This document shows positions 2,217 to 18,558 of a stretch of DNA of 64,000 nt, in pieces. Origin of the DNA: Zophobihabitans entericus. Lineage in GTDB: Bacteria > Pseudomonadota > Gammaproteobacteria > Enterobacterales > Orbaceae. The position numbers were made by a program, and so were the translations under genes. A model generated the notes under the pieces. The model saw only the letters and a program-made list of their open reading frames with translations. It had not been told where the DNA came from and ran no database searches. The DNA lies in contig NZ_CP050253.1 in NCBI RefSeq assembly GCF_011745665.1, positions 35,418-99,417 of the forward strand, given 5' to 3'. How positions within the stretch are numbered: position 1 is the stretch's first letter; every line of letters starts with the position of its first letter.

Positions 2217-3719
2217 ATGAATCGTCGAAATTTTTTAACGCGTCTGGGCGTTTTAGTCAGTACAGCTATCGTCGGGCGAGCTCTGGCTAATTCAGGTCAT
2301 AATATGCCCGCAAATACCGGACATAATATGGGACACATGGGTGGTATGAACTCCATGCAAGGACATATGGGACAAAATAAGCTATTACCTGTTTCAGCCC
2401 TGCCAACAGGCACTCCACTGCCTACGCTCCCATTACTCAAAAATACCAGCCAGCAAGCTAACACTTTTGAGGCAACACTCCATGCCAGACCCATAAAGGT
2501 CACTCTGACACCAGAAATTACTACAGAATTTTGGGCTTACAATGACTCTATTCCGGGGCCATCAATTGAAGTTTTTGAAGGTGATACGATTAAAATTACT
2601 GTCAAAAATGATTTACCACAGCCTACTACCGTTCACTGGCATGGCTTACCAGTACCCGCTGATCAGGATGGTAATCCGCAGGATGAAATCCCGGTTGGTG
2701 GTTCACGCGTCTATACATTTACGCTACCGGAAGGCTGTGCCGGGACTTACTGGTATCACCCGCATGGGCATGAAACAGTAGCAGAACAAGCCTTTAGAGG
2801 GCTGGCTGGTACACTGATTGTCAGAGCTAAAAATGATCCTCTGGTACATCTGCCAGAACAACAGTGGCTGTTCTCCGATCTCAAATTAAATAGTGACGGC
2901 CAAATTGCTGATAACAGTATGATGGATTGGATGAATGGTCGTGAAGGCCAATTCACGCTGTTAAATGGCTCTCATCAGCCAAAAATCACCTTAACAGAAG
3001 CCACCCGAGTTCGGTTATGGAATGCCTGTTCCGGTCGTTATCTAAACCTTAACTTCCCGGGTTGTGACGTACAACTGGTAGGTACCGATGGAGGCCTAAT
3101 GGAAAAGCCTTATGCACTTGAAATTTTACTGCTAAGCCCGGGTGAGCGTGCAGAAGTAATTGTCACACCAATTCAAACTGCAACAGCAATGCTGCAATCT
3201 TTTGCCTATGATCGCGGTAAAATGGGACCAAAAGTGATTGAAATCCCTCGCTTTCTGGCTGAAATGGGACTGACAGAATCAAAAGCACCAACACTTCCGT
3301 CAATACTGCGCCCTCTGCCACAGCTTGGCACTGCTACAGCATCTAAATACCTTGAGTATACTGAAGAGATGAAAATGGGAAGCGGTATGAAGTTCTATAT
3401 CAATGGAAAGTCCCACGATATGGCTCGTATCGATCTAGTCAGTAACGCAGGTGAAGTTGAAGAATGGACAATCTTTAATAACTCCCATATGGATCATAAC
3501 TTCCATATTCATGGTACTCAGTTCACTGTCGTTAATTATGAACTTGATGGCGATAAACGTTTACCAGACTATATTGGGCATAAAGATACCGTTAATCTTA
3601 GACCGTATGAAACTGTACGTATTAAAATTCGTCAGGATCTAAAAGGGCTTCGTATGTATCACTGTCATATTCTGGAACATGAAACGCTTGGTATGATGGG
3701 ACAACTCAACGTTATCTAA
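2217..3719 (+). CDS. Three-domain multicopper oxidase (CueO/CopA-like) with a Tat signal peptide and an N-proximal Met/His-rich region.
   Basis: RRNFLTRLGV twin-arginine signal. The Met/His-rich stretch is GHNMPANTGHNMGHMGGMNSMQGHMG. Copper ligand motifs are HWHG, HPHGH, and HCHILEHETLGMM near the C-terminus. Confidence 0.85.
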   Translation: MNRRNFLTRLGVLVSTAIVGRALANSGHNMPANTGHNMGHMGGMNSMQGHMGQNKLLPVSALPTGTPLPTLPLLKNTSQQANTFEATLHARPIKVTLTPEITTEFWAYNDSIPGPSIEVFEGDTIKITVKNDLPQPTTVHWHGLPVPADQDGNPQDEIPVGGSRVYTFTLPEGCAGTYWYHPHGHETVAEQAFRGLAGTLIVRAKNDPLVHLPEQQWLFSDLKLNSDGQIADNSMMDWMNGREGQFTLLNGSHQPKITLTEATRVRLWNACSGRYLNLNFPGCDVQLVGTDGGLMEKPYALEILLLSPGERAEVIVTPIQTATAMLQSFAYDRGKMGPKVIEIPRFLAEMGLTESKAPTLPSILRPLPQLGTATASKYLEYTEEMKMGSGMKFYINGKSHDMARIDLVSNAGEVEEWTIFNNSHMDHNFHIHGTQFTVVNYELDGDKRLPDYIGHKDTVNLRPYETVRIKIRQDLKGLRMYHCHILEHETLGMMGQLNVI

Positions 3720-5969: not shown

Positions 5970-8588
5970 CTAGAACGCATATTTCAAGCCAAGCAATACA
6001 CGAGAATCTTTATAATCATGCGAACCAATATTGTGTGAAAGATTCAACCAGGCAGAGAAGTTATCATTAAACTGGCCGTTAATCCCGGCTTTTAGCTGGA
6101 ACTGATGACGGCTACCGTTTTGTTCAACTGTAATATCATCCATATTGAATGAGAAGTTAGTCGAGCGCATGATGTAGTTTGTCTCAACGAACGGCTTATA
6201 AGCGATATCGTTATATAATCCTTCCATCATAAAACGCATACCTAAGCGCCCTTCAACCGTATTATCGTGATCATAGCTAATCACGGTACCGTTTTCTTCT
6301 ATGTGACCTTCCGGACGGGCATGCATCCAGATAACCTGAGCATTTGGCTGAATATAATATTTAAAGTCGCTATCACTTTGATCTAACTTAAATACATAAC
6401 CACTTTCCAGAGACATATTCAGACCACGGATTTTGTATGTTTCCGTCATCAGACCTTCACCAGATACTTTATTATCAGTCCAGGCATAGTTGAACCAGCT
6501 ATCAATATACAGGCCAGTTTTCTCTTCATCATTGGCAAACCAGTAACCATAAATACCTAAAGAGTAACCATCAGATGTACCAGTTGAGCGATAACCAGTG
6601 AGCTTGGAATCAGTATGACTACGTGTATAACCATAACCAGCCATTAAACCTAAATGTAGGGTATATTTTTTAGCTAAGGTAAAATGCGCCGCTTCAACAC
6701 CCATTTGAGTGACTAAATAGTTACTGCGATTTTTTAATTGTTCAGAACCACTCAGGTAACTATTACGACCGGCACGTTGATTTAACCAAAATGTAGTAGT
6801 ACGCACGTCTCCGGTAGCAATATCAACGTATTGACGTTCACCTGCACGATCGTTAAATGTTAAATTAAACATCGTATTGCTGGCGACTAAGTTAGTTAAA
6901 TAACTACCTACTTCCGGACGGAAATTAGGATTTTGCAGATCACCACTAGTCAGATACCAGTTATTGCTGCTTGTCGCTACACCATCACCACGGGTAATGT
7001 CGTACTCATAAGCACCAGCAATAATACGACCAGACTTAGTAAATTCGCCATCTGACTGACCTTGTACTTCAATAATCTCAATACCATTTTGAGTCTGTGC
7101 GCCGGTACCACCAATATTATTAATCTTAACAGCAGTCGTTCCTGATGTATCACCAGTGATAACTAATTTATCAGAATCCGACGTATCATCACCAAGCACG
7201 GTATTTAAAGTAATTTTTGCACCATCACCATGATAATCGGTAGTCACTGTCAGTGTTTTAAAGATCCCGTCATCATGATTATAAATTAAAGAGGAATTAT
7301 TCAGGCTAAGTTCTGTCACTGATGAATCACCCATCATCTCCCAGACAGAGTTGCCAGATAAATCAAAGTTAATAGTACCACCATTATTTGTCGCTGCGCC
7401 TTTTAAATAAGATGCACTATTAGCGGCAATATCAATAATGCCTGAGCTGCTAGCCAAAAAGTTACCATAAGCAACAAGACGAGCATTCTGTAACGTAATC
7501 GAGCTATTATTATCAGCAGTCATTGCTGTAATCGCGTTATTTTCTCTGTCATGCCCTAAAAAAGTATCACCATTCAGCGTGATAGAGGAATTGTTTGACG
7601 CTTGTACGTAGTAAGTATTACTAGAAAACTGATCGTCAGAGCTAACAAAGTCAATATAGGTTTTACCATTTGTAACCAATGAGCTGTTTAAAGCAGAGAC
7701 AAGACCTGCCACATTGTTAACATTTTTATCCATTTGAATGGTAATATCAGTATTGTTTAGCTCAATACTGCCCTTATTATAGGCTTCAATTCCGACGGCT
7801 TCTGTGGCATTATCTTTGGCATGAATTGTCAGAAGAAAGTCACCCTCTGATTTGAATTTTCCGCCTTTATTGATACCAACCCCATAAAATGCTGTAACCG
7901 CGTCTTCACCGATAATATTAAGCTCAGTTGAACCTAATAAATTAATTTCACCACTATACGCAATAATAGCTTGTGCATATGTCACATTTTTAGCAGTTAA
8001 ATTAATTAAGCTATCTTCAACAGTCAATGTGACTTTGTCAGAAGGTACGACAGCAGCTGAGGCAGCATTATCTCGAACATAATATGCCATTGCGATATAC
8101 ATATCTTCGACATTGAGTTCATTTTCTGTGAGACCTGTCAATGTGACATGATTAGATGTGACGTTCCCGGATGAAACCGCCGCCACAGTGGAAACATATC
8201 CACTACCACGCATGACGCCGTTATTTGAAGATTCTAAGGAAACATAGAGGTTATCCGCCTGGACAGAAGTGATCAGATTATTAAAACCACTTCTTAGACC
8301 ATAAAGATAATTAGTGCCCATTTCAGTTGCATAGATTTTAGATCCACTACCTAAATCAAGTTGTCCCTGACGAACATGTACTACAGAATCATTGATTTTG
8401 GCCTGACCTTCATTAGCGACAGTAATTGAACCATTATCCTGAATAGAGTGAACGTCAGCACCGGCAACAACGATAGAATCGAGTGTATCATTATTGTCAT
8501 GAACTACGACGGCAGCATGCGAAGGAATACTATAAAGAATAGCAAAAATCGCTATCGCCAGCGGACTTCTCTTTTTTTGATATTTCAA
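5970..8588 (-). CDS. Type Va autotransporter outer-membrane protein (adhesin-like passenger plus C-terminal beta-barrel translocator).
   Basis: Signal peptide (MKYQKKRSPLAIAIFAILYSIPSHA). Long Ser/Thr/Asn/Gly-rich repetitive beta-helical-type passenger. C-terminal beta-domain ending in an aromatic residue (…LGLKYAF). Confidence 0.8.
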   Translation of the reverse strand: MKYQKKRSPLAIAIFAILYSIPSHAAVVVHDNNDTLDSIVVAGADVHSIQDNGSITVANEGQAKINDSVVHVRQGQLDLGSGSKIYATEMGTNYLYGLRSGFNNLITSVQADNLYVSLESSNNGVMRGSGYVSTVAAVSSGNVTSNHVTLTGLTENELNVEDMYIAMAYYVRDNAASAAVVPSDKVTLTVEDSLINLTAKNVTYAQAIIAYSGEINLLGSTELNIIGEDAVTAFYGVGINKGGKFKSEGDFLLTIHAKDNATEAVGIEAYNKGSIELNNTDITIQMDKNVNNVAGLVSALNSSLVTNGKTYIDFVSSDDQFSSNTYYVQASNNSSITLNGDTFLGHDRENNAITAMTADNNSSITLQNARLVAYGNFLASSSGIIDIAANSASYLKGAATNNGGTINFDLSGNSVWEMMGDSSVTELSLNNSSLIYNHDDGIFKTLTVTTDYHGDGAKITLNTVLGDDTSDSDKLVITGDTSGTTAVKINNIGGTGAQTQNGIEIIEVQGQSDGEFTKSGRIIAGAYEYDITRGDGVATSSNNWYLTSGDLQNPNFRPEVGSYLTNLVASNTMFNLTFNDRAGERQYVDIATGDVRTTTFWLNQRAGRNSYLSGSEQLKNRSNYLVTQMGVEAAHFTLAKKYTLHLGLMAGYGYTRSHTDSKLTGYRSTGTSDGYSLGIYGYWFANDEEKTGLYIDSWFNYAWTDNKVSGEGLMTETYKIRGLNMSLESGYVFKLDQSDSDFKYYIQPNAQVIWMHARPEGHIEENGTVISYDHDNTVEGRLGMRFMMEGLYNDIAYKPFVETNYIMRSTNFSFNMDDITVEQNGSRHQFQLKAGINGQFNDNFSAWLNLSHNIGSHDYKDSRVLLGLKYAF

Positions 8589-8772
8589 TTTTCATCCAAC
8601 CCGTTGTTTTTATTATTTAATAGTTTTTATTATTGATTTTGGCCGTAATTATAACATTACTTATACAAAAGTAAAAAAATGGATAGGTATTATTCTTGTT
8701 TTGAAAAGAAATTGAAAAGGTGTTTATTTGCTGAACGCTGGGAGTGTCTTAATTAAAGGAGAATGATAAAAA

Positions 8773-8790
8773 CCCCCAATTAAACCCCCA
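8773..8790 (+). repeat. Copy 1 of the CCCCCAATTAAACCCCCA motif. It lies just outside the island's left junction.
   Basis: Exact 18-mer shared with 17103-17120. There is a near-identical copy at 9095-9112. Confidence 0.7.
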
Positions 8791-9011
8791 AATGATGCAT
8801 CTATTAAGCTGAAAGATGTCTTACTAACTTGGTTAATGGCTTGAGAGCTGTTAGCAAAAGGGATTACTCGTATCATCCTGATACTCGCCCTTTGGGCCGT
8901 TGCGCTGCAACGTTCAAAACTGTTCCCGACAGTTTTGTCAAACCTCCTTCGGAGGTTCTCATCCTCGGTAAACTTCAGGCGTAAAAAAACCTGCATAAAT
9001 GCAGGTTTCTC

Positions 9012-9038
9012 AAAATTGGTCGCGAGAGAGGATTCGAA
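9012..9038. repeat. attL-like direct repeat. It is a partial copy of the tRNA-Pro 3' end and forms the left boundary of the genomic island.
   Basis: aattggtcg-cgagagaggattcgaa matches aattggtcggcgagagaggattcgaa at 17226-17253 with one indel. Confidence 0.7.
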
Positions 9039-9094
9039 TTATTCAATTAACTTATTGTTTTATTTAAATATAAAATAATTAATTTTAGCTAAAA

Positions 9095-9112
9095 CCCCCA
9101 ATAAAACCCCCA
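9095..9112 (+). repeat. Copy 2 of the CCCCCAAT(A/T)AAACCCCCA motif. It lies just inside attL.
   Basis: cccccaataaaaccccca, 17/18 identical to the other two copies. Confidence 0.7.
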
Positions 9113-9173
9113 TTTACTTATTTAATTGAATATTGTGATATAAATCACTCTAAGCGATTAAATAACAGGCAAA

Positions 9174-9386
9174 TTATAGAAGTTCTTTTACATTAACGCT
9201 TAAACCCTTAGCAATAATATTAATCACTTCTAAAGTTGGGTTTCTTATGCCACGCTCAATACCACTAATATAGGTACGATCAAGCCCACACTTATCTGCG
9301 AACGCTTCTTGTGACATTCCCTGCTGTAATCGGAGTTGCCTAACTCTCTGTCCAAAAAGGACTTTTACTTTATCTGACTTTTCCAT
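9174..9386 (-). CDS. XRE-family HTH transcriptional repressor (70 aa), copy 1.
   Basis: Cro/C1-type HTH (LRLQQGMSQEAFADKCGLDRTYISGIERGIRNPTLEVI). About 80% identical to the paralog at 9746-9964. Confidence 0.8.
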   Translation of the reverse strand: MEKSDKVKVLFGQRVRQLRLQQGMSQEAFADKCGLDRTYISGIERGIRNPTLEVINIIAKGLSVNVKELL

Positions 9387-9414
9387 CAGATAAATATCAC
9401 ACTATGTTGATTAT

Positions 9415-9437
9415 TAGACCACGGACTATAAGTCACA
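9415..9437. promoter_or_regulatory. Putative operator (tagaccacggactataagtcaca) upstream of XRE copy 1, in the divergent XRE/Ner control region.
   Basis: The motif contains the palindrome GACTATAAGTC. An almost identical 23-mer recurs upstream of XRE copy 2 at 9993-10015. Confidence 0.5.
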
Positions 9438-9529
9438 TTTTATAAAATTCATGCTATTATGTTACTTATAGTCAACATAGTAAGTTTGACTAGTTAGAGG
9501 ATCTAGCAATTCATTAAGGAGTCATCAAT

Positions 9530-9781
9530 ATGGAAAAAGTAGACTGGCATTCATCAGATATTATTGCAGCATTTAAAAAACTGGATACAAGCCTTGCAGA
9601 GGTATCTCGTGCACAAGGTTATGCACCATCAACCTTAGCAAATGCACTTGTTAGACCATGGCCGAGGGGCGAAAAAATTATTGGGGCTGCTTTAGGGATA
9701 CCACCAGAAGAGATATGGCCGTCCAGATATGCCAGACGGTTAAAGCTAAAACTGAAAAAGCACGTCAAGTTTGACGTTTAA
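9530..9781 (+). CDS. Ner-like (Nlp/SfsB family) DNA-binding protein, divergent from the XRE repressor.
   Basis: DWHSSDIIAAFKKLDTSLAEVSRAQGYAPSTLANALVRPWPRGEKIIGAALGIPPEEIWPSRY closely matches phage Mu Ner and E. coli Nlp. The C-terminal tail of the ORF overlaps the next gene. Confidence 0.8.
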   Translation: MEKVDWHSSDIIAAFKKLDTSLAEVSRAQGYAPSTLANALVRPWPRGEKIIGAALGIPPEEIWPSRYARRLKLKLKKHVKFDV

Positions 9782-9964
9782 GCCATTAGCAATAGTATTA
9801 ATCACTTCGAGCGTAGGGTTTCTGACTCCACGCTCAATACCGCTAATATAGGTACGATCAAGTCCGCATTTATCTGCAAATGCTTCTTGTGACATACCAG
9901 CCTGTAAGCGAAGTTGTTTAACTCGCTGCCCGAAAAGGGACTTTATTTGATCTGCTCTTTTCAT
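9746..9964 (-). CDS. XRE-family HTH transcriptional repressor (72 aa), copy 2. It is a tandem paralog.
   Basis: HTH LRLQAGMSQEAFADKCGLDRTYISGIERGVRNPTLEVI. DNA is ~80% identical to 9174-9386, including the upstream operator. Confidence 0.8.
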   Translation of the reverse strand: MKRADQIKSLFGQRVKQLRLQAGMSQEAFADKCGLDRTYISGIERGVRNPTLEVINTIANGLNVKLDVLFQF

Positions 9965-9992
9965 GAGATCAGTATCAATTAATGATGCTTAT

Positions 9993-10015
9993 CAGACCAC
10001 GGACTATGAGTCACA
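9993..10015. promoter_or_regulatory. Second copy of the putative operator (cagaccacggactatgagtcaca), upstream of XRE copy 2.
   Basis: Near-identical to 9415-9437. Located 29 bp upstream of the XRE start. Confidence 0.5.
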
Positions 10016-10299
10016 AATAACTAATTGTTTTTAATCGCTCTCCTTAATTTTAAGCAGATTTATATGCTTAGAATTAAGGAGACAAATCCCTTAAATTAAT
10101 TTTTAAATTTCATTTTGAATTAATTCTCCTCACCCATTCATCACTTTGTTATCTTAATCATGCACAGAAAAATCACATGACCTGAAAGTGATGCAATAGC
10201 GGTCAATCCCTCTAGCTGTAAGTGTCTCTTGAAAGAACAGCATCACTAATGTGATTGGAGACCTCTTATACATAAACTCAATCAACAGGCGAATTCTGT

Positions 10300-10770
10300 C
10301 TGCTGATTCACATAACCACATTGCTTTTAGCAAATATGTACCCCGTGGTGGCTTCGCTACGTCTGGTGAATGCCGTTAAGACATAACCGGCGTGTGCGTT
10401 GCCACTGAACACGACACCAAGGCGTCACTTTTAAAAGCGGTTAGCGCGAAAAGTGACGCCGCATTCACACACCGTACAAACGCCCTTGTATTCACACTTG
10501 CGGCTAAGTATGCGATTTCTGACACACGCCATTTTGCGTTATTTCAACCATCAATCAATAAGGAGTAAAGCGAATCTGATATCGAGGCAGACATAAATGT
10601 CTGGAGGATGACTTGCGAAAGCAAGCGGCTGCACAGAGTGCACAACCGATACCTCACAACACCTCAACCATTGCCGCTCTGGCGTATCGGTATCATTCGT
10701 TGTATATGGCTGTTTAGCCATGTGTTATTTGCCGTACGCCAGAGAATCAATGTTTTAAGTGAGTAGATAA
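10300..10770. other. GC-rich (~50% against ~35% background), hairpin-rich non-coding block. It is a candidate structured ncRNA or a recombination/replication site.
   Basis: Stop codons occur in all frames. There is a 12-bp perfect stem GGCGTCACTTTT...AAAAGTGACGCC at 10421-10460. Palindrome CAGACATAAATGTCTG is at 10588-10603. Nested stems span 10681-10740. TTCACAC-like repeats are present. Confidence 0.35.
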
Positions 10771-10783
10771 TTAAAGGAGAGTT

Positions 10784-11659
10784 ATGGGAAGTTTAAAAGA
10801 CGAAATGACAAAACTGGCTTATCGGGCTGGTGGGAGCTTTAAAACAGTGAATGGCCGAATCACTATTGCTAAAAGATTGAGTGAGAATTTGTATAGACTA
10901 AATATACAAATACACCATGTTAAGCATTTGAAAGCCAAGCATGTTGTTAACTATATACAAGACCGTTTAACCCAAGGAATAGGTAAACGAACGCTGCAAA
11001 ATGAAATGGCGGCTATTCGTTCTATTCTGGTTCAGGCTGAACGGCATAAATTAGCAGAGTCGCCTATTCTGACTAATCAGGCTTTAGGGCTATCCCAAGC
11101 CAACAGAGACGGCACACATAAGGCTATTTCTGATAGACATTATGAACAAGTATTAATTCAGGCTGTGCAGATTAATAAAGGTTTTGCCTGCGCGCTGGAA
11201 CTCGCTTATCAGATGGGTTTGCGTTCTCAGGAAGCTGTTCAATGCTCACTGTCTTTAACAACATGGTTAACTATGTTAGAAAAAGAACAAACCCGATTAC
11301 CTGTGACGTTTGGCACAAAAGGCAGTAGACCACGAGAGACTCTGGTTCTCAATGCTGAGTTACTTAAACAGACTATCCAAAAAGCGCTAAGGGTAATGGA
11401 AGAACAAAAAGGTAAGTTGATTGATAAACCTGATTTAAAATCGGCTATGGCTTACTGGCGACGAACAGCCATAAAGGTAAATTTAAAAGGGGAATACTCC
11501 CCACATAGCTTACGCTATGCGTGGGCACAAAGGGCTTTACAGCATTACCAAGAAAAAGGCTTTAGTCATAAAGAATCATTGGCTTTAGTTTCTATGGATT
11601 TGGGGCATGGTGATGGGCGTGGGAGATATGTGGAGAGGGTTTATAATTTAATAAAATAA
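10784..11659 (+). CDS. Tyrosine-recombinase-fold protein (291 aa). It is the second recombinase-like gene in the island.
   Basis: Conserved recombinase boxes: GLRSQEA (box I Arg), HSLRYAWA (H-x-x-R box II), and LGHGDGRGRYVERVY (catalytic Tyr). Confidence 0.5.
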   Translation: MGSLKDEMTKLAYRAGGSFKTVNGRITIAKRLSENLYRLNIQIHHVKHLKAKHVVNYIQDRLTQGIGKRTLQNEMAAIRSILVQAERHKLAESPILTNQALGLSQANRDGTHKAISDRHYEQVLIQAVQINKGFACALELAYQMGLRSQEAVQCSLSLTTWLTMLEKEQTRLPVTFGTKGSRPRETLVLNAELLKQTIQKALRVMEEQKGKLIDKPDLKSAMAYWRRTAIKVNLKGEYSPHSLRYAWAQRALQHYQEKGFSHKESLALVSMDLGHGDGRGRYVERVYNLIK

Positions 11660-11791
11660 AATTTTATATATCAGATAATTAAAGAAATTAAGATCATTTT
11701 CCTTAAATATATACGATTAAATAAATTTCATGTAACTTATAACACCATAAGCTCAAATGTATACCGATTATCGTAATCAACACTGTATATA

Positions 11792-12571
11792 ATGCAAGCT
11801 TTTATTTTAGGCTTTGATAATTTCATTAACTATCTGTTTATTAAAATTTCAAAACAAGGGAATAAGATGAGAAAAATTATTGTGACAGATTTAACAAGAT
11901 TCTCCACCGATGAAAAGGTATGTATTGCAGCTATTGATATAAGCACAGGAGAATGTTTTCGTCCTATGCCATATATTAAAAGTGCTAAATGTAAAGCATT
12001 AAAAATACACCCAGGAGCAATCTTCGTTGGTGTTCTTGACTTTAAAAAACCTAAAGAAGCCCCTCATGTTGAAGATGCCAGTTATTCAAAATTAGGTTTT
12101 AGCCGAGCATGCAGTAGTGAGGAATTTAGAATGGTTCTAGAGAATTCTTTAACTAATTCAATCTCTAAAGGATTTGGTTTTACTTTTGAAAAAGGCCAAA
12201 AGCATATTCCTAGCAATCAAAAGGTTCATTGCTCAATAATTACAATTAAAATAAACCCAAAACAACTAAGTATTTTTGAAGATCAGTTTAAAGCAGGTAA
12301 AATCAAAGCCACCTTGATAGATAATGATGGGCAAGTATTTAGCTATCTACCCATAACTGATAGAGGTTTTCACGATTATGCTAAAAAGCACCAAGACAAT
12401 GGAAAACTAAATGAAATTACAGAGTTTATTTCTAATCAGGAGATTATTTACTTAAGGATTGGACTAAGCCGTGCTTATCAATCACCTAATGGTAAGAGTG
12501 GGTATTGGTTACAGATTAATGGTATTTATACATATCCTAATTTTCATGAGGAAATAAGAGCATATGACTAA
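11792..12571 (+). CDS. Hypothetical protein, first gene of a three-gene operon. The likely true start is 11867 (MRKIIVTDL..., 234 aa) with an AAGGGA RBS.
   Basis: No recognisable domains. It is translationally coupled to the downstream DUF488 gene by an ATGA overlap. Confidence 0.55.
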   Translation: MQAFILGFDNFINYLFIKISKQGNKMRKIIVTDLTRFSTDEKVCIAAIDISTGECFRPMPYIKSAKCKALKIHPGAIFVGVLDFKKPKEAPHVEDASYSKLGFSRACSSEEFRMVLENSLTNSISKGFGFTFEKGQKHIPSNQKVHCSIITIKINPKQLSIFEDQFKAGKIKATLIDNDGQVFSYLPITDRGFHDYAKKHQDNGKLNEITEFISNQEIIYLRIGLSRAYQSPNGKSGYWLQINGIYTYPNFHEEIRAYD

Positions 12572-13022
12572 AGAAATAGTAGCTAATATTTATACTATAG
12601 GATTTACAAAAAAAAGTGCTCAAACATTTTTTAATTTTATAAAATTATCAAATGTGGCTACTGTATTAGATGTACGACTAAATAATATTTCTCAACTAGC
12701 AGGATTTGCTAAAAAAGATGATCTTCAGTTTTTCCTGAAAGAACTCTGCAATACAAATTACATGCATTTACCTGAATTAGCCCCAACAAAAGAAATATTA
12801 AATCCTTATCAAAAAGGTGATATTTCTTGGCTTGCTTATGAAGATAAATTTCTAAATTTGATGGCTCAACGTAATGTGGAAAAATCAATATCTTCTAAGA
12901 TATTAGAGAATAGCTGTTTATTATGTAGTGAACATGAACCACATTTCTGTCATAGGCGGTTAGTTGTTGATTATTTAAATGAACATTCAAACCTTAAATT
13001 GAACGTTAGGCATTTATATTAA
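12564..13022 (+). CDS. DUF488-family protein (152 aa).
   Basis: Starts IYTIGFT... Has the C-terminal hallmark CLLCSEHEPHFCHRRLVVDYL, the C-x-E-x-x-P-x-x-CHR motif of DUF488 (YeaO-like). GAGGAAA RBS. Overlaps both neighbouring genes. Confidence 0.7.
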   Translation: MTKEIVANIYTIGFTKKSAQTFFNFIKLSNVATVLDVRLNNISQLAGFAKKDDLQFFLKELCNTNYMHLPELAPTKEILNPYQKGDISWLAYEDKFLNLMAQRNVEKSISSKILENSCLLCSEHEPHFCHRRLVVDYLNEHSNLKLNVRHLY

Positions 13023-13645
13023 TGAATAAAATTTTATTGCTTTACCCAAAATCATTTAAATGTTACTCAAAATTTTTTCGTAAAGTGGAAAAGATTATAA
13101 GTAAGTTAGACCTTGTGACTATATTATTTTTAGAGGATTCTAATAATTTTATTTCCAGATTATCAAAAGAAAGTATGCATATTAAGGAAATAAAAAAATT
13201 ATCAAATTGGTCAATAAATAATATCACACATGCAATTATTTTTGATGATGGTGAAGAGTTTCCAGAAGAGGTAAAACAGATAGAATCTTTAAATATTCCT
13301 CTTCGTTATATTAAAATCGCCATCACTCGGGTTGTAAATATAAAAAATGAAATTGAGTACACCTCAGAAAAAAGTACCTCTACATATGAATATATAGGCA
13401 GAGGATCTTATTGGGGAAATCCTTATTCAATCTATGAAGTAGAAGATCTAGATAAAGGAGAAACCCCTAGAGAAAATGTAATCAGAAAATTCAAATATGA
13501 TTTCGAACATGATTGCTTATTGAATCGAGATAAAAATAAAGTATATGAACTTGCTGGAAAACGTCTAGGTTGCTTTTGTAAACCTGAAGCTTGCCATGGT
13601 GATGTTATCGCTGATTTTTTAAACTCTTGGGATGATGAAAAGTAA
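13022..13645 (+). CDS. Two-domain protein (207 aa): an unknown N-terminal domain plus a C-terminal DUF4326 domain.
   Basis: Carries the DUF4326 signature motifs GNP (YWGNPYS) and CHG (CFCKPEACHGDVIADFL). The start codon overlaps the upstream stop (TAATG). Confidence 0.65.
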   Translation: MNKILLLYPKSFKCYSKFFRKVEKIISKLDLVTILFLEDSNNFISRLSKESMHIKEIKKLSNWSINNITHAIIFDDGEEFPEEVKQIESLNIPLRYIKIAITRVVNIKNEIEYTSEKSTSTYEYIGRGSYWGNPYSIYEVEDLDKGETPRENVIRKFKYDFEHDCLLNRDKNKVYELAGKRLGCFCKPEACHGDVIADFLNSWDDEK

Positions 13646-13729
13646 TTTTAAATTAATAGGATAAAATAAGCACAGTCTTGATTTTAGCTCCAGCTTGCCT
13701 TAGAGAGCACTTTTCAATATTAATTACAT

Positions 13730-14059
13730 TTATAATGTTATAACTATTTGATAACGACCACTCATTTTTTGTGACTTACCCCAAATTATTAATGCATTAT
13801 CACTTGTATTATATTCATAGGCTTGATAATCCCTTGATAAATCAAGATGAAAATTATCTGGGATCAATTCTCCACTTTCCATGAGCTGTATATTGCCACC
13901 ATGGTAGCCATTTCGGATAAACTTGACTGTTGTTTTTTCAAAAGCATTTCTAATTTTACTTTTGTAGTTAATAAATCCTTCAAATTCACAGTTTCCATAT
14001 GAATCTGTTCGTAGATTATTTTGGCTTATAAATTCAGTCATTGCTAATATTGATTTCAT
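13730..14059 (-). CDS. Hypothetical protein (109 aa) immediately downstream of the OLD-family nuclease gene.
   Basis: GAGGAAA Shine-Dalgarno 6 nt upstream of the ATG. Sits 36 bp after the OLD gene stop on the same strand. No recognisable domain. Confidence 0.5.
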   Translation of the reverse strand: MKSILAMTEFISQNNLRTDSYGNCEFEGFINYKSKIRNAFEKTTVKFIRNGYHGGNIQLMESGELIPDNFHLDLSRDYQAYEYNTSDNALIIWGKSQKMSGRYQIVITL

Positions 14060-14095
14060 TCATCTTTCCTCGTTGTAAGGGCATCTTATCCCAAC

Positions 14096-15745
14096 TTAAC
14101 TATCTAGTTTTTCAAGCTCACTAATATCTGTATATAACCCTGAATGAGAGTTATCAATAATAGAGCTTAAGGCATTTCGAAGAAGTTCATACTTAGGAGA
14201 TTCTTCAAAGTGGTCTGAATTTAAGTGTTTCATTAAATTATACGGTTTATCCTTAGATATTGACTCGTTAAAATAGAATCCCTCAAAATCTGGATAATGT
14301 ACAACGGTTTGAACTCTTCCCTCCGTTTGATCTGCTGCCTCTCTGATATTTATATTGATTGTTCTCATTGGGTTTTTACGTCCGCTTTTATCATACTCCG
14401 AGTCAAGATCATGGATAGCTATTGCTGTCGCTTTAAATTGATTAAATATCTTTATAAAAGATGGAATATTAGCCTTTCCTCTACAGTTAATTACACAATG
14501 AGAATCGTTTAAAGATAGTTTATCGATAAGATATTGATATGCTAAATATTCAGTATCACCTTCAACTAAAATAGATTTCTGATAAAAGAAAAATTCATTT
14601 ACTGTAGGGCAGCATCTATTCAGCATTTTTAAATTATCCTTTTCATCATCTGTGAAATTGGCTTTATCTGTTTGAAAGTAATAGATTTTATCAGGGCTAT
14701 TAGACACTTTAATGAGAGTGGTGTGATTTTGTGCTAAATCGATAAATATTGGAGAGTGTGTAGTACAAATAATTTGCCAGCCGTCAACTTCAGCTAGTGC
14801 GTAAATTGCTTTTCGTGCAGCTTTTATAACTGCTGGATGCAAGTTTATTTCAGGTTCATCAATTAATAATATTTTCGGTTTATCACTACTTATCAATTTC
14901 TTACTTTGAATAAATAAATTTTCACTACATAAAGCATTTATTGCTGACCACAAAAATGCTCTCTGAACACCAGATCCTTGACTGGATAGGGACGTTGAAC
15001 ACCCATTACTTTGTATATTGAATTTACTTCCGTCTTTAATTATATCTTCTGTTTTTAACTTCCCAACACCGCAATCAAATGAAACAGAAATACCAGAAAA
15101 AACTTTATTTAACTCACTTTGAATTTTTTCATTAACTTGAGAAATATTACCAGATAGCTCTACTTTGACTTCTTGAGCCAGATCTTCAATTTTTTCAATA
15201 ATATTTGCTAATTTAGAATTATCATTTTTGAGTTTCTCTGACACTTTTTTAGACACTAGATCTTTTACAATCTTTTCTAGGGAGTCGTAATCGTCATTGG
15301 GGTTGATTCTTATTGGAGTTGGTAACCGACTTTGTAATAATGTATCCCAACCTCCAGCCCCTCCTTTTTTCCAATCATTAGTATCTTTACTGAAACTATA
15401 TTTTTGTCCTTTTTCATTAGGTGCTTCCCAACGGACTTGAAACTTAGCACAAGTTCCAAAATTAGGATCATTAGCTAAAACCCACTCTTGACCAATTGTT
15501 TTTTGATCTTCTTCTGTAATATCAACAAAAACACCAGTAATCAAGATAGTATTACTACTATCTTGATTATGAAAATATTCTATACTTAATGCCGACCCCA
15601 TTGATACATACGCTTCGTATGCGTCCAGAATTGTAGACTTACAGCAATTATTTGGTCCAATCAAAACAACAATGTTATCCATCAAAATTGTTACTTCGTC
15701 GGAGATTCCTTTAAAATTAGAAATTAATAATGCAGCAAGTTTCAT
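14096..15745 (-). CDS. OLD-family (overcoming lysogenization defect) ATP-dependent nuclease. It has an ABC-type ATPase (AAA_15/21) plus a C-terminal Toprim domain, and is a class-1 OLD or PARIS-like single-gene form.
   Basis: Walker A is GPNNCCKST, ABC signature is SQGSGVQRAF, Walker B is ILLIDEPEINLHP, and the H-loop is TTHSP. Toprim motifs are ILVEGDTEYLAY and IAIHDLDSEYD. Size (549 aa) matches P2 Old. Confidence 0.8.
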   Translation of the reverse strand: MKLAALLISNFKGISDEVTILMDNIVVLIGPNNCCKSTILDAYEAYVSMGSALSIEYFHNQDSSNTILITGVFVDITEEDQKTIGQEWVLANDPNFGTCAKFQVRWEAPNEKGQKYSFSKDTNDWKKGGAGGWDTLLQSRLPTPIRINPNDDYDSLEKIVKDLVSKKVSEKLKNDNSKLANIIEKIEDLAQEVKVELSGNISQVNEKIQSELNKVFSGISVSFDCGVGKLKTEDIIKDGSKFNIQSNGCSTSLSSQGSGVQRAFLWSAINALCSENLFIQSKKLISSDKPKILLIDEPEINLHPAVIKAARKAIYALAEVDGWQIICTTHSPIFIDLAQNHTTLIKVSNSPDKIYYFQTDKANFTDDEKDNLKMLNRCCPTVNEFFFYQKSILVEGDTEYLAYQYLIDKLSLNDSHCVINCRGKANIPSFIKIFNQFKATAIAIHDLDSEYDKSGRKNPMRTININIREAADQTEGRVQTVVHYPDFEGFYFNESISKDKPYNLMKHLNSDHFEESPKYELLRNALSSIIDNSHSGLYTDISELEKLDS

Positions 15746-15814
15746 TTGGTATCCCTATGAATAAATGTATTATCTAAACAGTATAATAACATGAAGTTTT
15801 TATACTGTTATAAT

Positions 15815-17071
15815 TTATTCAAACTCATAAGGCGCAACAAACCCAACTTTGTTTGCGTCTAAATAATCAGCCCACCATTGCATCATGCGTTTACGCTCAT
15901 CAATAAACTGTGCCTTGTGAATATAAGCAGCTCTGACGCTGTTACGCTCTTGATGGCTCATTTGTCTTTCTATCGCATCTGTTGACCACTGCCCTGACTC
16001 ATTCAGTGCACCACAAGCAATAGTCCTTAAACCATGCCCGCAAATCTCAGTTTGAGTGTCATAACCCAATCTACGCAATGCCTGATTAATCGTATTTTCA
16101 CTCAATGGTCTGTGCGGTCTGCCCAAACAAGGAAAGATCAATTCATTCTCACCTGTCATTTCCTGTACTTCCCTAAACAAGCTCACCGCCTGAGTTGATA
16201 AAGGTACTAAATACTCACTCATCTTTGCGCCACGGTAAGAATATCGAACACCTTCAAGTGGCTCTCTGTTATCTGGAATAATCCACATAGCACGCTCGAG
16301 ATCGATCTCATTCCAACGGGCAAGGCGTAATTCACTTGAACGAACAAACAGGTAAATATTGAGTTTTAGCGCTAATAAGGTGAGTTGTCTGGCTCTGCCT
16401 TGACTATATAGATCGATACGCTCAAAAAGCTCAGGCAAACGCTCTAATGGTAAGGCTGGATAATGCTTTTTCTTTGGTGACTGAACAGCCCCTTGCAGAT
16501 CGAGCGCTGGGTTATATTCAATAATTCCATTTTGCAGAGCATAACGCATAATAGAAGTTAGACAGTATTTCAGGCGAATAACCGTATCAAGATAACCCTT
16601 TCTTTCAACCGCTTTCAAAGCCAGAAGAAGATCCTGAGTTTTTAAGCTCACCACTAGGCGATTTTTTAATACAGGAAAAAGGTAGGTTTCAATTGCCCGA
16701 ACAATGGAATGTGAATAACTTTCAGACCAACCCGATAATTTACCCTGATAAATCCACCATGATCGCGCAGTTTCTTCAAAGCGTTTACCCACTTGTCGAG
16801 CTACTTTTTCTTTTTGTTTTTCAGCTCCGGGATCAATAGATTGGCTGAGTAAGGTTTTAGCCTCTTCACATAGTTTACGTGCGGCAGATAAGGAAACTGT
16901 TGGATAAGCACCATAAGCAAGGCGTTTTTCTTTTCCATCAAAACGGTACTTCTGATACCAGAGTTTCGAACCAGAGGGGTTGATTATAATGTGCAGTCCA
17001 AAACCGTCACTGAGTTTATAGGGCTTGCTTCGAGGCTTGGCATTACGGATAGCAACGTCTGTTAGCGCCAT
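15815..17071 (-). CDS. int: P4-type tyrosine integrase (site-specific recombinase). The probable start is at 17071 (MALTDVAIRNAKP...). The ORF track extends it to 17137.
   Basis: N-terminal DUF4102-like arm-binding region (ALTDVAIRNAKPRSKPYKLSDGFGLHIIINPSGSKLWYQKYRF). C-terminal catalytic domain (…HGLRTIACGAL…, Y in …SVRAAYIHK). AGGAG RBS. Adjacent to the tRNA-Pro 3' end. Confidence 0.9.
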   Translation of the reverse strand: MALTDVAIRNAKPRSKPYKLSDGFGLHIIINPSGSKLWYQKYRFDGKEKRLAYGAYPTVSLSAARKLCEEAKTLLSQSIDPGAEKQKEKVARQVGKRFEETARSWWIYQGKLSGWSESYSHSIVRAIETYLFPVLKNRLVVSLKTQDLLLALKAVERKGYLDTVIRLKYCLTSIMRYALQNGIIEYNPALDLQGAVQSPKKKHYPALPLERLPELFERIDLYSQGRARQLTLLALKLNIYLFVRSSELRLARWNEIDLERAMWIIPDNREPLEGVRYSYRGAKMSEYLVPLSTQAVSLFREVQEMTGENELIFPCLGRPHRPLSENTINQALRRLGYDTQTEICGHGLRTIACGALNESGQWSTDAIERQMSHQERNSVRAAYIHKAQFIDERKRMMQWWADYLDANKVGFVAPYEFE

Positions 17072-17102
17072 TGGGGGTCTCCTGAAAATTGGGCTGTAAA
17101 GA

Positions 17103-17120
17103 CCCCCAATTAAACCCCCA
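17103..17120 (+). repeat. Copy 3 of the CCCCCAATTAAACCCCCA motif. It lies ~32 bp upstream of the integrase start, inside attR.
   Basis: Exact 18-mer identical to 8773-8790. Confidence 0.7.
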
Positions 17121-17230
17121 CATAGTGTGGCTGTCAAAGGTAGTTCATGGACTTTATAGGACGAAGAAGATTTGTAACTTGTTGATTTTTTTTAATCTAA
17201 GGACTTCGCTGGAAGTCCTCGGAAGAGAAT

Positions 17231-17307
17231 TGGTCGGCGAGAGAGGATTCGAACCTCCGACCCACTGGTCCCAAACCAGTTGCGCTACCAAGCTGCGCTA
17301 CTCGCCG
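17231..17307 (-). tRNA. tRNA-Pro (anticodon UGG).
   Basis: The reverse complement folds as a canonical cloverleaf: acceptor CGGCGAG/CTCGCCG, D-stem GCGC, anticodon loop TTTGGGA, T-loop TTCGAAT, 3' ACCA. It is identical to the E. coli proM-type sequence. Confidence 0.95.
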
Positions 17308-17361
17308 TTAGGATGCGAATAATACTGCTCCGGATGGCAAGTGTCAAGGGGGATAGAGAAA

Positions 17362-18558
<1,197 letters not shown>

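What the first reader, a model, noticed from the sequence alone, without database searches (positions are those of the whole stretch)
13730..15745. OLD-family ATPase-Toprim nuclease co-transcribed with a 109-aa unknown partner.
The 549-aa protein has the complete ABC-ATPase motif set plus Toprim EGDTE/DxD motifs, and it is the size of P2 Old. It is followed 36 bp later on the same strand by a 109-aa ORF that has a strong RBS and no recognisable domain. Known OLD systems are class 1 (single gene), class 2 (with a UvrD-like helicase), Gabija (GajA with a GajB helicase) and PARIS (AriA plus AriB DUF4435). A small non-helicase partner does not fit the described two-gene classes. The partner could be an accessory factor, an anti-toxin-like modulator, or an unrelated gene.
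Basis: partly seen in the sequence, partly recalled or inferred. Interest (0 to 1): 0.55.

Follow-up and report, generated by a model that had tools for sequence, protein, structure and literature searches.

The report
Stand-alone OLD nuclease plus unrelated small gene
This is an ordinary single-gene (Class 1) OLD anti-phage nuclease in a small tRNA-integrated island, and the 109-aa gene behind it is a real but unrelated mobile gene that elsewhere travels alone as an integron cassette, not a conserved OLD partner.

Summary
A 549-aa ATPase-Toprim ORF (14096-15745, minus strand) is followed after 36 bp by a 109-aa ORF (13730-14059) with an AGGA ribosome-binding site and no terminator in between.

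The large protein is a complete Class 1 OLD nuclease (PADLOC 'Old' 5e-82, all catalytic motifs intact). It belongs to a widespread ~548-aa subfamily.

- In nine independent genomic contexts of this OLD subfamily, a family HMM finds no relative of the small ORF. In Marinobacter the OLD is itself a single-gene, attC-flanked integron cassette.
- The small ORF belongs to a real, uncharacterised ~110-aa family (129 cluster representatives, AF2 pLDDT 94.5, weak PH-like fold, no Pfam or PDB match). It occurs without OLD as a single-gene cassette in the Vibrio vulnificus superintegron, in other integron-like arrays and in metabolic operons. No neighbour is shared between independent loci.
- One residual lead remains. 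A metagenomic Gabija locus has a degraded copy just downstream.

Best reading: a stand-alone Class 1 OLD with an unrelated, possibly co-transcribed passenger gene, as with old-tin in phage P2. Interest is low.

The parts
14096..15745 (-). Class 1 OLD-family nuclease, 549 aa: N-terminal ABC ATPase (with an inserted region, as in Ts OLD) and C-terminal Toprim domain.
   Evidence: PADLOC Old 5e-82. Pfam AAA_15, AAA_21 and OLD-like_TOPRIM. Nearest solved structure is 6P74 (Ts OLD). K36/S37, D296/E297, H330, E395/E399, G423/K424 and D446/D448 are invariant across the subfamily and P2 Old.
14060..14095 (-). 36-bp spacer between OLD and the small ORF. It carries an AGGAAAG Shine-Dalgarno sequence and no terminator.
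13730..14059 (-). 109-aa gene of an uncharacterised family of ~110-aa proteins (motifs RNGYxDG, FHLDF, GxSxKMGGxYxV). It is a mobile passenger gene, not a conserved OLD partner.
   Evidence: 129 representatives; H71, S96, K98, Y103 invariant. (pLDDT 94.5). (only weak PH-like fold matches). (single-gene cassette in Vibrio).
15783..15811 (-). Promoter-like site (ATAACA-17-TATTAT, with TG) in the 69-bp gap upstream of OLD. It is a candidate promoter for an OLD/small-ORF transcript.
   Evidence: This is a consensus match only; the number of sites found is not above the shuffle expectation.
15815..17137 (-). P4-type tyrosine integrase (Arm-DNA-bind_3, Phage_int_M, Phage_integrase). The real start is probably the internal Met (MALTDV...) near 17071.
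17231..17307 (-). tRNA-Pro(UGG), the integration target. Its 3' end carries the att core.
17237..17253 (.). att core copy inside the 3' part of tRNA-Pro (GCGAGAGAGGATTCGAA).
9022..9038 (.). Distal att core copy. It is an exact 17-nt repeat that extends to AATTGGTC(G)GCGAGAGAGGATTCGAA, and it sets the far end of an island of about 8.2 kb.
   Evidence: The autotransporter gene beyond it and tgt beyond the tRNA are core-like.
11792..13645 (+). Convergent three-gene operon: DuOB, DUF488, and mSLOG-DUF4326. It is a separate candidate defence module in the same AT-rich cargo block.
   Evidence: DUF488 protein matches PADLOC PDC-M45C at 3e-64. (GC3 16-22%, like OLD and the small ORF).

Best explanation
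The 549-aa gene is a stand-alone Class 1 OLD-family anti-phage nuclease. It is carried as cargo in an island of about 8.2 kb integrated at tRNA-Pro by a P4-type integrase.

Inferred mechanism, by homology with Ts OLD, P2 Old and Vc OLD:
- An ABC-ATPase dimer senses or gates the response to infection.
- The Toprim domain then cuts nucleic acid by two-metal catalysis, using E395, E399, D446 and D448.
- The target could be DNA (nicking or degradation, as in Vc and Ts OLD) or tRNA (as reported for P2 Old).
- The result is a block to phage replication.

The 109-aa gene 36 bp downstream is an independent mobile gene. It encodes a small helix-plus-beta-sandwich protein that elsewhere moves on its own as an integron gene cassette. 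It has landed behind OLD and is probably read through from the OLD promoter, much as the unrelated tin gene shares an mRNA with old in phage P2. It is not required for OLD function and is not part of a conserved two-gene system.

My guess for its role is a self-sufficient small binding protein of the accessory, defence or counter-defence gene pool. That part is inference only.
For: Shown:
- Domain and motif completeness of the OLD. The best model is single-gene 'Old', not GajA or AriA. The nearest structure is Class 1 Ts OLD, 6P74.
- More than 100 homologues of ~548 aa at 51-69% identity.
- Nine independent contexts, each with different flanks and no shared neighbour: Scandinavium, Pseudoalteromonas, Microbulbifer, Aeromonas, Proteus, V. 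parahaemolyticus, a Klebsiella P4-like satellite hotspot, Acinetobacter and Marinobacter.
- In Marinobacter the OLD is bracketed by two canonical attC sites, so it is a one-gene cassette.
- The small-ORF family HMM finds nothing in any of these loci (tblastn).
- The small ORF is a real family.
- The V. vulnificus homologue (55% identity) is a 478-bp single-gene cassette between two 120-nt attC-like repeats.
- L017 has an integrase plus an attC directly upstream of its copy.
- The Burkholderia pBMC401 copy sits in an integrase-headed run of about 40 small unidirectional genes.
- Other copies lie in metabolic operons or next to IS110, HNH, Mrr or HEPN genes.
- No neighbour is homologous between independent loci.
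- P2 old and tin are annotated as sharing one mRNA.
- Literature: Class 1 means a single gene without a helicase or RT, of 500-600 aa. Vc OLD and YbjD alone give anti-phage phenotypes (PMC12392090, PMC13261556, PMC7049728).
Against: - The tight 36-bp spacing, good RBS and lack of a terminator would also fit a functional operon.
- One metagenomic locus (L036) has a Gabija (GajA/GajB) pair followed on the same strand by a small-ORF family copy. Another (L031) has an AAA_13/PDC-S06 ABC ATPase 450 bp downstream of one.
- So 2 of about 11 loci with readable upstream sequence carry an OLD-family gene in front. That is more than a random gene would show.
- No other genome carries this exact island, so lineage-specific recruitment cannot be excluded.
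- No expression, interaction or phenotype data exist.
Confidence: 0.8

Rival explanations
1. Lineage-specific two-gene system. In this island the small protein has been recruited as an accessory factor of the OLD nuclease, acting as a sensor, adaptor or antitoxin-like brake. This would be a new OLD layout.
For: - 36-bp spacing, same strand, RBS, no terminator, and no promoter-like site found immediately upstream of the small ORF.
- OLD and the small ORF share the same AT-rich composition.
- Reviews note it is still open whether Class 1 OLDs associate with other proteins (PMC10568477).
Against: - There is no co-occurrence in 15 loci (nine contexts) of the same OLD subfamily.
- The OLD occurs as a one-gene cassette and the small gene occurs as a one-gene cassette.
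- The whole cargo block, including the convergent operon, has the same composition, so composition says nothing about linkage.
- Characterised Class 1 OLDs work alone (PMC12392090, PMC13261556).
Confidence: 0.08
2. The small-ORF family is a general modulator or inhibitor of OLD-family and ABC-ATPase nucleases. It would be an anti-defence or 'immunity' protein spread by integrons and plasmids, and here it is paired with an OLD like an antitoxin.
For: - Recurrent proximity to ABC-ATPase defence genes: Class 1 OLD (window), Gabija (L036) and AAA_13/PDC-S06 (L031).
- The family lives in integron arrays and on a conjugative megaplasmid.
- It is a small single-domain binder-like fold.
- Phage-encoded small OLD inhibitors exist, for example Oad1 (PMC12392090).
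Against: - The L036 copy is a pseudogene with a stop codon and a frameshift, next to an apparently intact Gabija.
- Most family members have no ATPase nearby.
- In L031 the ATPase is downstream and is replaced by another gene in the sister locus L032.
- There is no hit in phage genomes, and the best viral structural match is weak.
- Co-location is expected for any gene that rides in defence islands or integrons.
Confidence: 0.07
3. The 109-aa ORF is a chance ORF or a decayed remnant with no function.
For: It sits in AT-rich DNA and has no annotated domain.
Against: - It is full length.
- It keeps all the invariant family residues H71, S96, K98 and Y103.
- 129 cluster representatives exist at E<=1e-3.
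- The AF2 model has pLDDT 94.5.
Confidence: 0.02

Closest known systems
Class 1 OLD family nucleases (P2 Old; Thermus scotoductus OLD, PDB 6P74; V. cholerae Vc OLD; E. coli YbjD/OldB)
   Same: [quoted passage not shown]
- 549 aa, inside the 500-600 aa range used for the class.
- No helicase, RT or DUF4435 partner.
- All catalytic residues conserved.
- Carried on a mobile island with other defence cargo, like the Vc OLD phage defence element.
   Different: - Only 26% identical to P2 Old. Only the C-terminal half aligns to Ts OLD by sequence.
- It belongs to a distinct, tightly conserved ~548-aa gammaproteobacterial subfamily for which I found no experimental work.
- Here it has an unrelated small gene directly downstream.
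P2 old-tin transcription unit
   Same: A Class 1 old gene is followed on the same strand by an unrelated gene and is annotated as sharing one mRNA. Tin acts independently of Old.
   Different: Tin is 253 aa and has no similarity to the 109-aa protein. The spacing in P2 is 174 bp, against 36 bp here.
Gabija (Class 2 OLD GajA + GajB helicase)
   Same: The same ATPase-Toprim architecture. GajA models hit at 1e-14 to 5e-25.
   Different: The downstream gene is not a UvrD-like helicase. The best GajA score is far below the 'Old' score (86 against 274 bits).
PARIS (AriA ATPase + AriB Toprim/DUF4435)
   Same: The ATPase half resembles AriA (1.3e-32).
   Different: ATPase and Toprim are fused in one protein, and there is no separate AriB.
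Integron gene cassettes of unknown function (Vibrio superintegron cassettes)
   Same: The closest relative of the small ORF is a single-gene, attC-flanked cassette. Other relatives lie in integrase-headed arrays.
   Different: In the window the gene has no attC site on either side and sits in a tRNA-integrated island.

Membership tests
OLD family nuclease | N-terminal ABC-type ATPase with Walker A, signature motif, Walker B and H-loop | tested here: met
   GPNNCCKST at 30-38, QGSG at 256, LLIDEPE at 293-299, TTHSP at 328. Pfam AAA_15 1.2e-30 and AAA_21 3e-15.
OLD family nuclease | C-terminal Toprim domain with the conserved Glu and DxD acidic residues | tested here: met
   VEGDTE at 394-399 and HDLD at 445-448, invariant across the subfamily and P2 Old. 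OLD-like_TOPRIM 1.3e-14. Aligns to Ts OLD 6P74 residues 269-498.
OLD family nuclease | Metal-dependent nuclease and ATPase activity; anti-phage phenotype | not testable with these tools
   Needs biochemistry and phage challenge.
Class 1 OLD (single gene) | [quoted passage not shown] | tested here: met
   The downstream gene is 109 aa with no helicase or other domain. The next gene is convergent.
Class 1 OLD (single gene) | No adjacent reverse transcriptase or retron ncRNA | tested here: met
   Island ORFs scanned with Pfam show no RT. The Rfam scan of 8500-17500 shows no retron RNA.
Class 1 OLD (single gene) | Length of about 500-600 aa, lacking the Class 2 helical insert | tested here: met
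   549 aa. The best PADLOC model is 'Old' at 274 bits, against at most 86 bits for GajA models. The helical insert itself was not examined structurally.
Class 1 OLD (single gene) | Functions without a conserved neighbouring gene | tested here: met
   Nine independent contexts of the subfamily share no neighbour. One is a single-gene attC-flanked cassette.
Gabija (Class 2 OLD) | GajB helicase encoded directly downstream of GajA | tested here: not met
   No GajB hit for any neighbour.
PARIS (Class 4) | Separate AriA ATPase and AriB (DUF4435 Toprim) genes, or an AriAB fusion matching those models best | tested here: not met
   A single fused protein. AriAB model scores 6e-16, against Old at 5e-82.
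Proposed OLD + small-partner two-gene system | Conserved co-occurrence of the small ORF with OLD homologues | tested here: not met
   The family HMM finds no small-ORF relative in any of the 15 OLD-subfamily loci. Of about 11 small-ORF contexts with readable upstream sequence, only the window and L036 (a Gabija with a pseudogene copy) have an OLD-family gene.
Proposed OLD + small-partner two-gene system | Physical interaction or functional dependence between the two proteins | not testable with these tools
   No multimer prediction is available, and no paired alignment is possible because the pair occurs only once.
Integron gene cassette (small-ORF family) | Gene bounded by attC recombination sites | tested here: inconclusive
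   Met for relatives: L002 sites at 7862-7981 and 8340-8459, and L017 at 3067-3179. Not met for the window copy, which has no attC-like site on either side.

The most novel reading that the evidence does not exclude
The ~110-aa family could be a new small modulator or inhibitor of OLD-family ABC-ATPase nucleases. It would circulate as an integron or plasmid cassette, and in this island it would be paired with a Class 1 OLD as an antitoxin-like brake or accessory subunit. That would make this a new two-gene OLD layout. The only support is tight spacing here, a degraded copy behind a Gabija locus (L036), and an AAA_13 ATPase near another copy (L031).
Probability: 0.1. Interest if true: 0.55.

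Novelty: new member of a known kind. Interest (0 to 1): 0.2.

Why it matters
As it stands, this adds one more Class 1 OLD to a rare but already described class. It also shows that the apparent 'new two-gene OLD architecture' comes from a passenger gene.

Two modest points of value remain:
- The ~548-aa OLD subfamily is widespread, highly conserved and demonstrably autonomous. It appears as a single-gene integron cassette, as P4-satellite hotspot cargo and as tRNA-island cargo. That makes it a good candidate for studying how a lone OLD senses phage.
- The 109-aa protein defines an unannotated, confidently folded family of mobile cassettes that has no Pfam entry.

Tried and rejected
- Domain searches of the small ORF in Pfam, PADLOC, PHROGs and NCBIfam gave nothing. 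Scanning 61 family members individually against Pfam gave only scattered noise.
- A profile search of PDB sequences gave only insignificant hits, E>=0.08.
- L029 shows small ORF, then 285 aa, then 154 aa, the same sizes as the Vibrio order (small ORF, DUF2971, ASCH). I tested it as a possible conserved gene order and found no homology, so it is coincidence.
- I tested whether the L036 small-ORF remnant is attC-flanked, and the result was unconvincing.
- I looked for attC sites around the window genes and found none.
- I compared base composition to ask whether OLD and the small ORF arrived together. It is uninformative because the whole cargo block is uniformly AT-rich.
A narrower alignment worked.
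- A pseudo-multimer prediction by translating across both genes was considered and dropped.

Full report
**Observation**

The two ORFs exist exactly as described, on the minus strand. The 549-aa ORF lies at 14096-15745 and the 109-aa ORF at 13730-14059. They are separated by 36 bp that contain AGGAAAG about 5 nt before the ATG. No terminator-like hairpin lies in or near the spacer. The nearest promoter-like site on that strand is upstream of the large gene, at 15811-15783. Co-transcription is therefore plausible but untested.

**Identity of the large protein**

- Pfam gives AAA_15 (1.2e-30), AAA_21 (3e-15) and OLD-like_TOPRIM (1.3e-14).
- PADLOC's single-gene 'Old' model scores 5.2e-82 (274 bits). 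The best AriA model scores 1.3e-32 and the best GajA model 5e-25.
- The only solved structure found by sequence is the Class 1 Thermus scotoductus OLD, 6P74.
- P2 Old aligns at 26% identity over 82% of the protein.

I aligned the protein with eleven subfamily members and P2 Old. Every catalytic element is invariant: Walker A K36/S37, signature G257/G259/R262, Walker B D296/E297, H330, Toprim E395/E399, G423/K424 and D446/D448.

None of the other genes on the island encodes a helicase, a reverse transcriptase or a DUF4435 protein. An Rfam scan of the island finds no retron RNA. By the published definitions this is a Class 1 OLD: a single gene, 500-600 aa, with no downstream helicase and no RT (PMC7049728, PMC10568477, PMC12392090).

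**Setting**

tRNA-Pro(UGG) lies at 17231-17307. It is followed by a P4-type integrase at 15815-17137, then OLD, then the small ORF. Beyond these lies a convergent three-gene operon: DuOB, DUF488, and mSLOG-DUF4326 (11792-13645). The DUF488 protein hits PADLOC candidate PDC-M45C at 3e-64.

A 17-nt exact copy of the tRNA 3' end sits at 9022-9038. This delimits an island of about 8.2 kb between an autotransporter gene and tgt. The cargo block from 11.8 to 15.7 kb is uniformly AT-rich, with GC3 of 16-22% against 33-39% in the integrases and core genes.

**Test from the OLD side**

The protein belongs to a large, tightly conserved subfamily of about 548 aa. More than 100 cluster representatives are 51-69% identical across the Gammaproteobacteria and beyond. 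I examined nine independent genomic contexts.

| Organism | Locus | Context |
|---|---|---|
| Scandinavium | L001 | OLD gene is frameshifted |
| Pseudoalteromonas | L006 | stand-alone |
| Microbulbifer | L007 | followed by an acetyltransferase |
| Aeromonas | L008 | next to parC |
| Proteus | L009 | stand-alone |
| V. parahaemolyticus | L011-L014 | stand-alone |
| Klebsiella | L040-L043 | P4-like satellite, between psu/delta and the integrase |
| Acinetobacter | L044 | stand-alone |
| Marinobacter | L045 | single-gene integron cassette |

The flanking genes differ in every case. In Marinobacter the OLD is bracketed by two canonical attC sites, so it is a single-gene integron cassette. Neither tblastn nor an HMM built from 61 small-ORF family members detects any relative of the small ORF in these 15 loci.

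**Test from the small-ORF side**

The word-indexed search found only the gene's own sequence (Zophobihabitans entericus) and a 55%-identical Vibrio vulnificus protein. The exhaustive HMMER search found 129 cluster representatives at E<=1e-3, and 36 at E<=1e-10. Nearly all are stand-alone proteins of 105-125 aa. Their alignment shows the motifs RNGYxDG, FHLDF and GxSxKMGGxYxV, with H71, S96, K98 and Y103 invariant. The ORF is therefore a real gene.

It has no Pfam family and no PDB sequence relative. An AlphaFold2 model built on 13 sequences is very confident, with pLDDT 94.5 and pTM 0.86. It shows an N-terminal helix packed on an antiparallel sheet. Structural matches are weak:
- Foldseek against PDB gives nothing significant.
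- One uncharacterised phage protein matches at TM 0.64.

Contexts of the family:
- In V. vulnificus the gene sits in the superintegron, between two 120-nt attC-like repeats 478 bp apart. It is a one-gene cassette among CcdAB and other cassettes.
- In L017 an integrase is followed by cassettes, and an attC lies directly upstream of the gene.
- On Burkholderia ambifaria pBMC401 the gene lies in an integrase-headed run of about 40 small unidirectional genes that include MazEF and Abi genes.
- Other copies lie between PEP mutase and adenylosuccinate lyase, inside a sugar-biosynthesis-like operon, next to a HEPN gene, or next to IS110, HNH and Mrr genes.

No neighbour is homologous between independent loci. 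The family has no hit in phage genomes.

**The residual lead**

In metagenomic locus L036, a bona fide Gabija pair (GajA 4e-113, GajB 3e-58) is followed about 140 bp downstream, on the same strand, by a small-ORF family copy. That copy is degraded: it has an in-frame stop, a frameshift and a broken N-terminus. In L031 an AAA_13/PDC-S06 ATPase lies 450 bp downstream of a family member, but the sister locus L032 has a different gene there.

So two of roughly eleven contexts with readable upstream sequence carry an OLD-family gene in front of the small gene. This is more than a random gene would show. It is what one expects, however, for a cassette that rides in defence islands and integrons. The pseudogenised state in L036 also argues against a requirement for the small gene. 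I keep a functional link at about 10-15% overall.

**Interpretation**

The best-supported picture is a stand-alone Class 1 OLD plus an unrelated mobile gene that happens to lie, and is probably transcribed, behind it.

The archetype offers a direct precedent. The P2 record annotates an 'old-tin mRNA', in which the unrelated tin gene follows old. Experimental work shows that Class 1 OLDs act alone. Vc OLD needs its Walker A/B and Toprim acidic residues and nicks DNA (PMC12392090). YbjD gives anti-phage phenotypes by itself (PMC13261556). P2 Old has been reported to cleave tRNA (PMC12445682). Which of these activities this subfamily has cannot be said from sequence.

**Verdict**

The interpretation as a novel two-gene OLD class is not supported. 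This is a new member of a known kind, and interest is low (0.2). The unannotated ~110-aa cassette family and the autonomous, widely mobile ~548-aa OLD subfamily are the only mildly useful by-products.

Noticed in passing
window 11792-13645 (+): A three-gene operon with overlapping junctions: DuOB-like (259 aa), DUF488 (152 aa; PADLOC candidate PDC-M45C at 3e-64) and mSLOG-DUF4326 (207 aa). It is convergent on the small ORF and looks like a separate predicted defence or conflict module in the same AT-rich cargo block.
   Followed up: partly
window 10570-10699 (+): A strong full-length Rfam EFASI RNA match (104.6 bits, E 2e-21) lies immediately upstream of a second integrase gene (PF12835 Integrase_1, 10784-11659) inside the island.
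   Followed up: no
window 9174-10015: Two Xre-type HTH genes (9174-9386 and 9746-9964, minus strand) lie in a 245-nt direct duplication of 80% identity. They flank an HTH_35 winged-helix gene (9530-9781, plus strand) that overlaps the second copy.
   Followed up: no
window 8767-8793, 9089-9115, 17097-17123: Three copies of a 27-nt C-tract repeat (TAAAAACCCCCAATTAAACCCCCAAAT) lie near both island ends. One is just upstream of the likely true integrase start, and one lies outside the distal att copy. They could be integrase arm-type sites or the trace of an older tandem insertion.
   Followed up: no
window 8849-8980 (-): An RtT-like RNA match at 44.1 bits, just under the gathering score of 45, overlaps the 90-aa ORF at 8724-8996. 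That ORF has no Pfam hit and may not be a gene.
   Followed up: no
L045 2933-4726 (Marinobacter sp. NFXS11): The OLD homologue (67% identity) is bracketed by two canonical attC sites (CTTAAC...GCGTTAAGC). It is therefore a single-gene integron cassette, followed by a HigBA cassette.
   Followed up: partly
L040-L043 (Klebsiella): An OLD homologue (57% identity) occupies the variable slot of a P4-like satellite, between psu/delta and the integrase. This is the known satellite defence hotspot layout.
   Followed up: no
L036 2208-5201 (metagenome Ga0105355): An intact-looking Gabija pair (GajA and GajB) is followed on the same strand by a degraded copy of the small-ORF family, with a stop codon and a frameshift.
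   Followed up: yes
L001 6001-7654 (Scandinavium sp.): The closest genome-collection OLD homologue (66% identity) is split into 389-aa and 168-aa ORFs by a frameshift near 7150. It is likely a pseudogene or a sequencing error.
   Followed up: no
L017-L020 (metagenome): In this lineage the small-ORF relative is always followed 59 bp later by the same 89-aa ORF, with no attC-like site between them. This may be a two-gene cassette.
   Followed up: no
window 15815-17137 (-): The listed integrase ORF starts at a TTG and adds 22 N-terminal residues. The Arm-DNA-binding domain begins at residue 25, so the real start is probably the internal ATG (MALTDV...).
   Followed up: no
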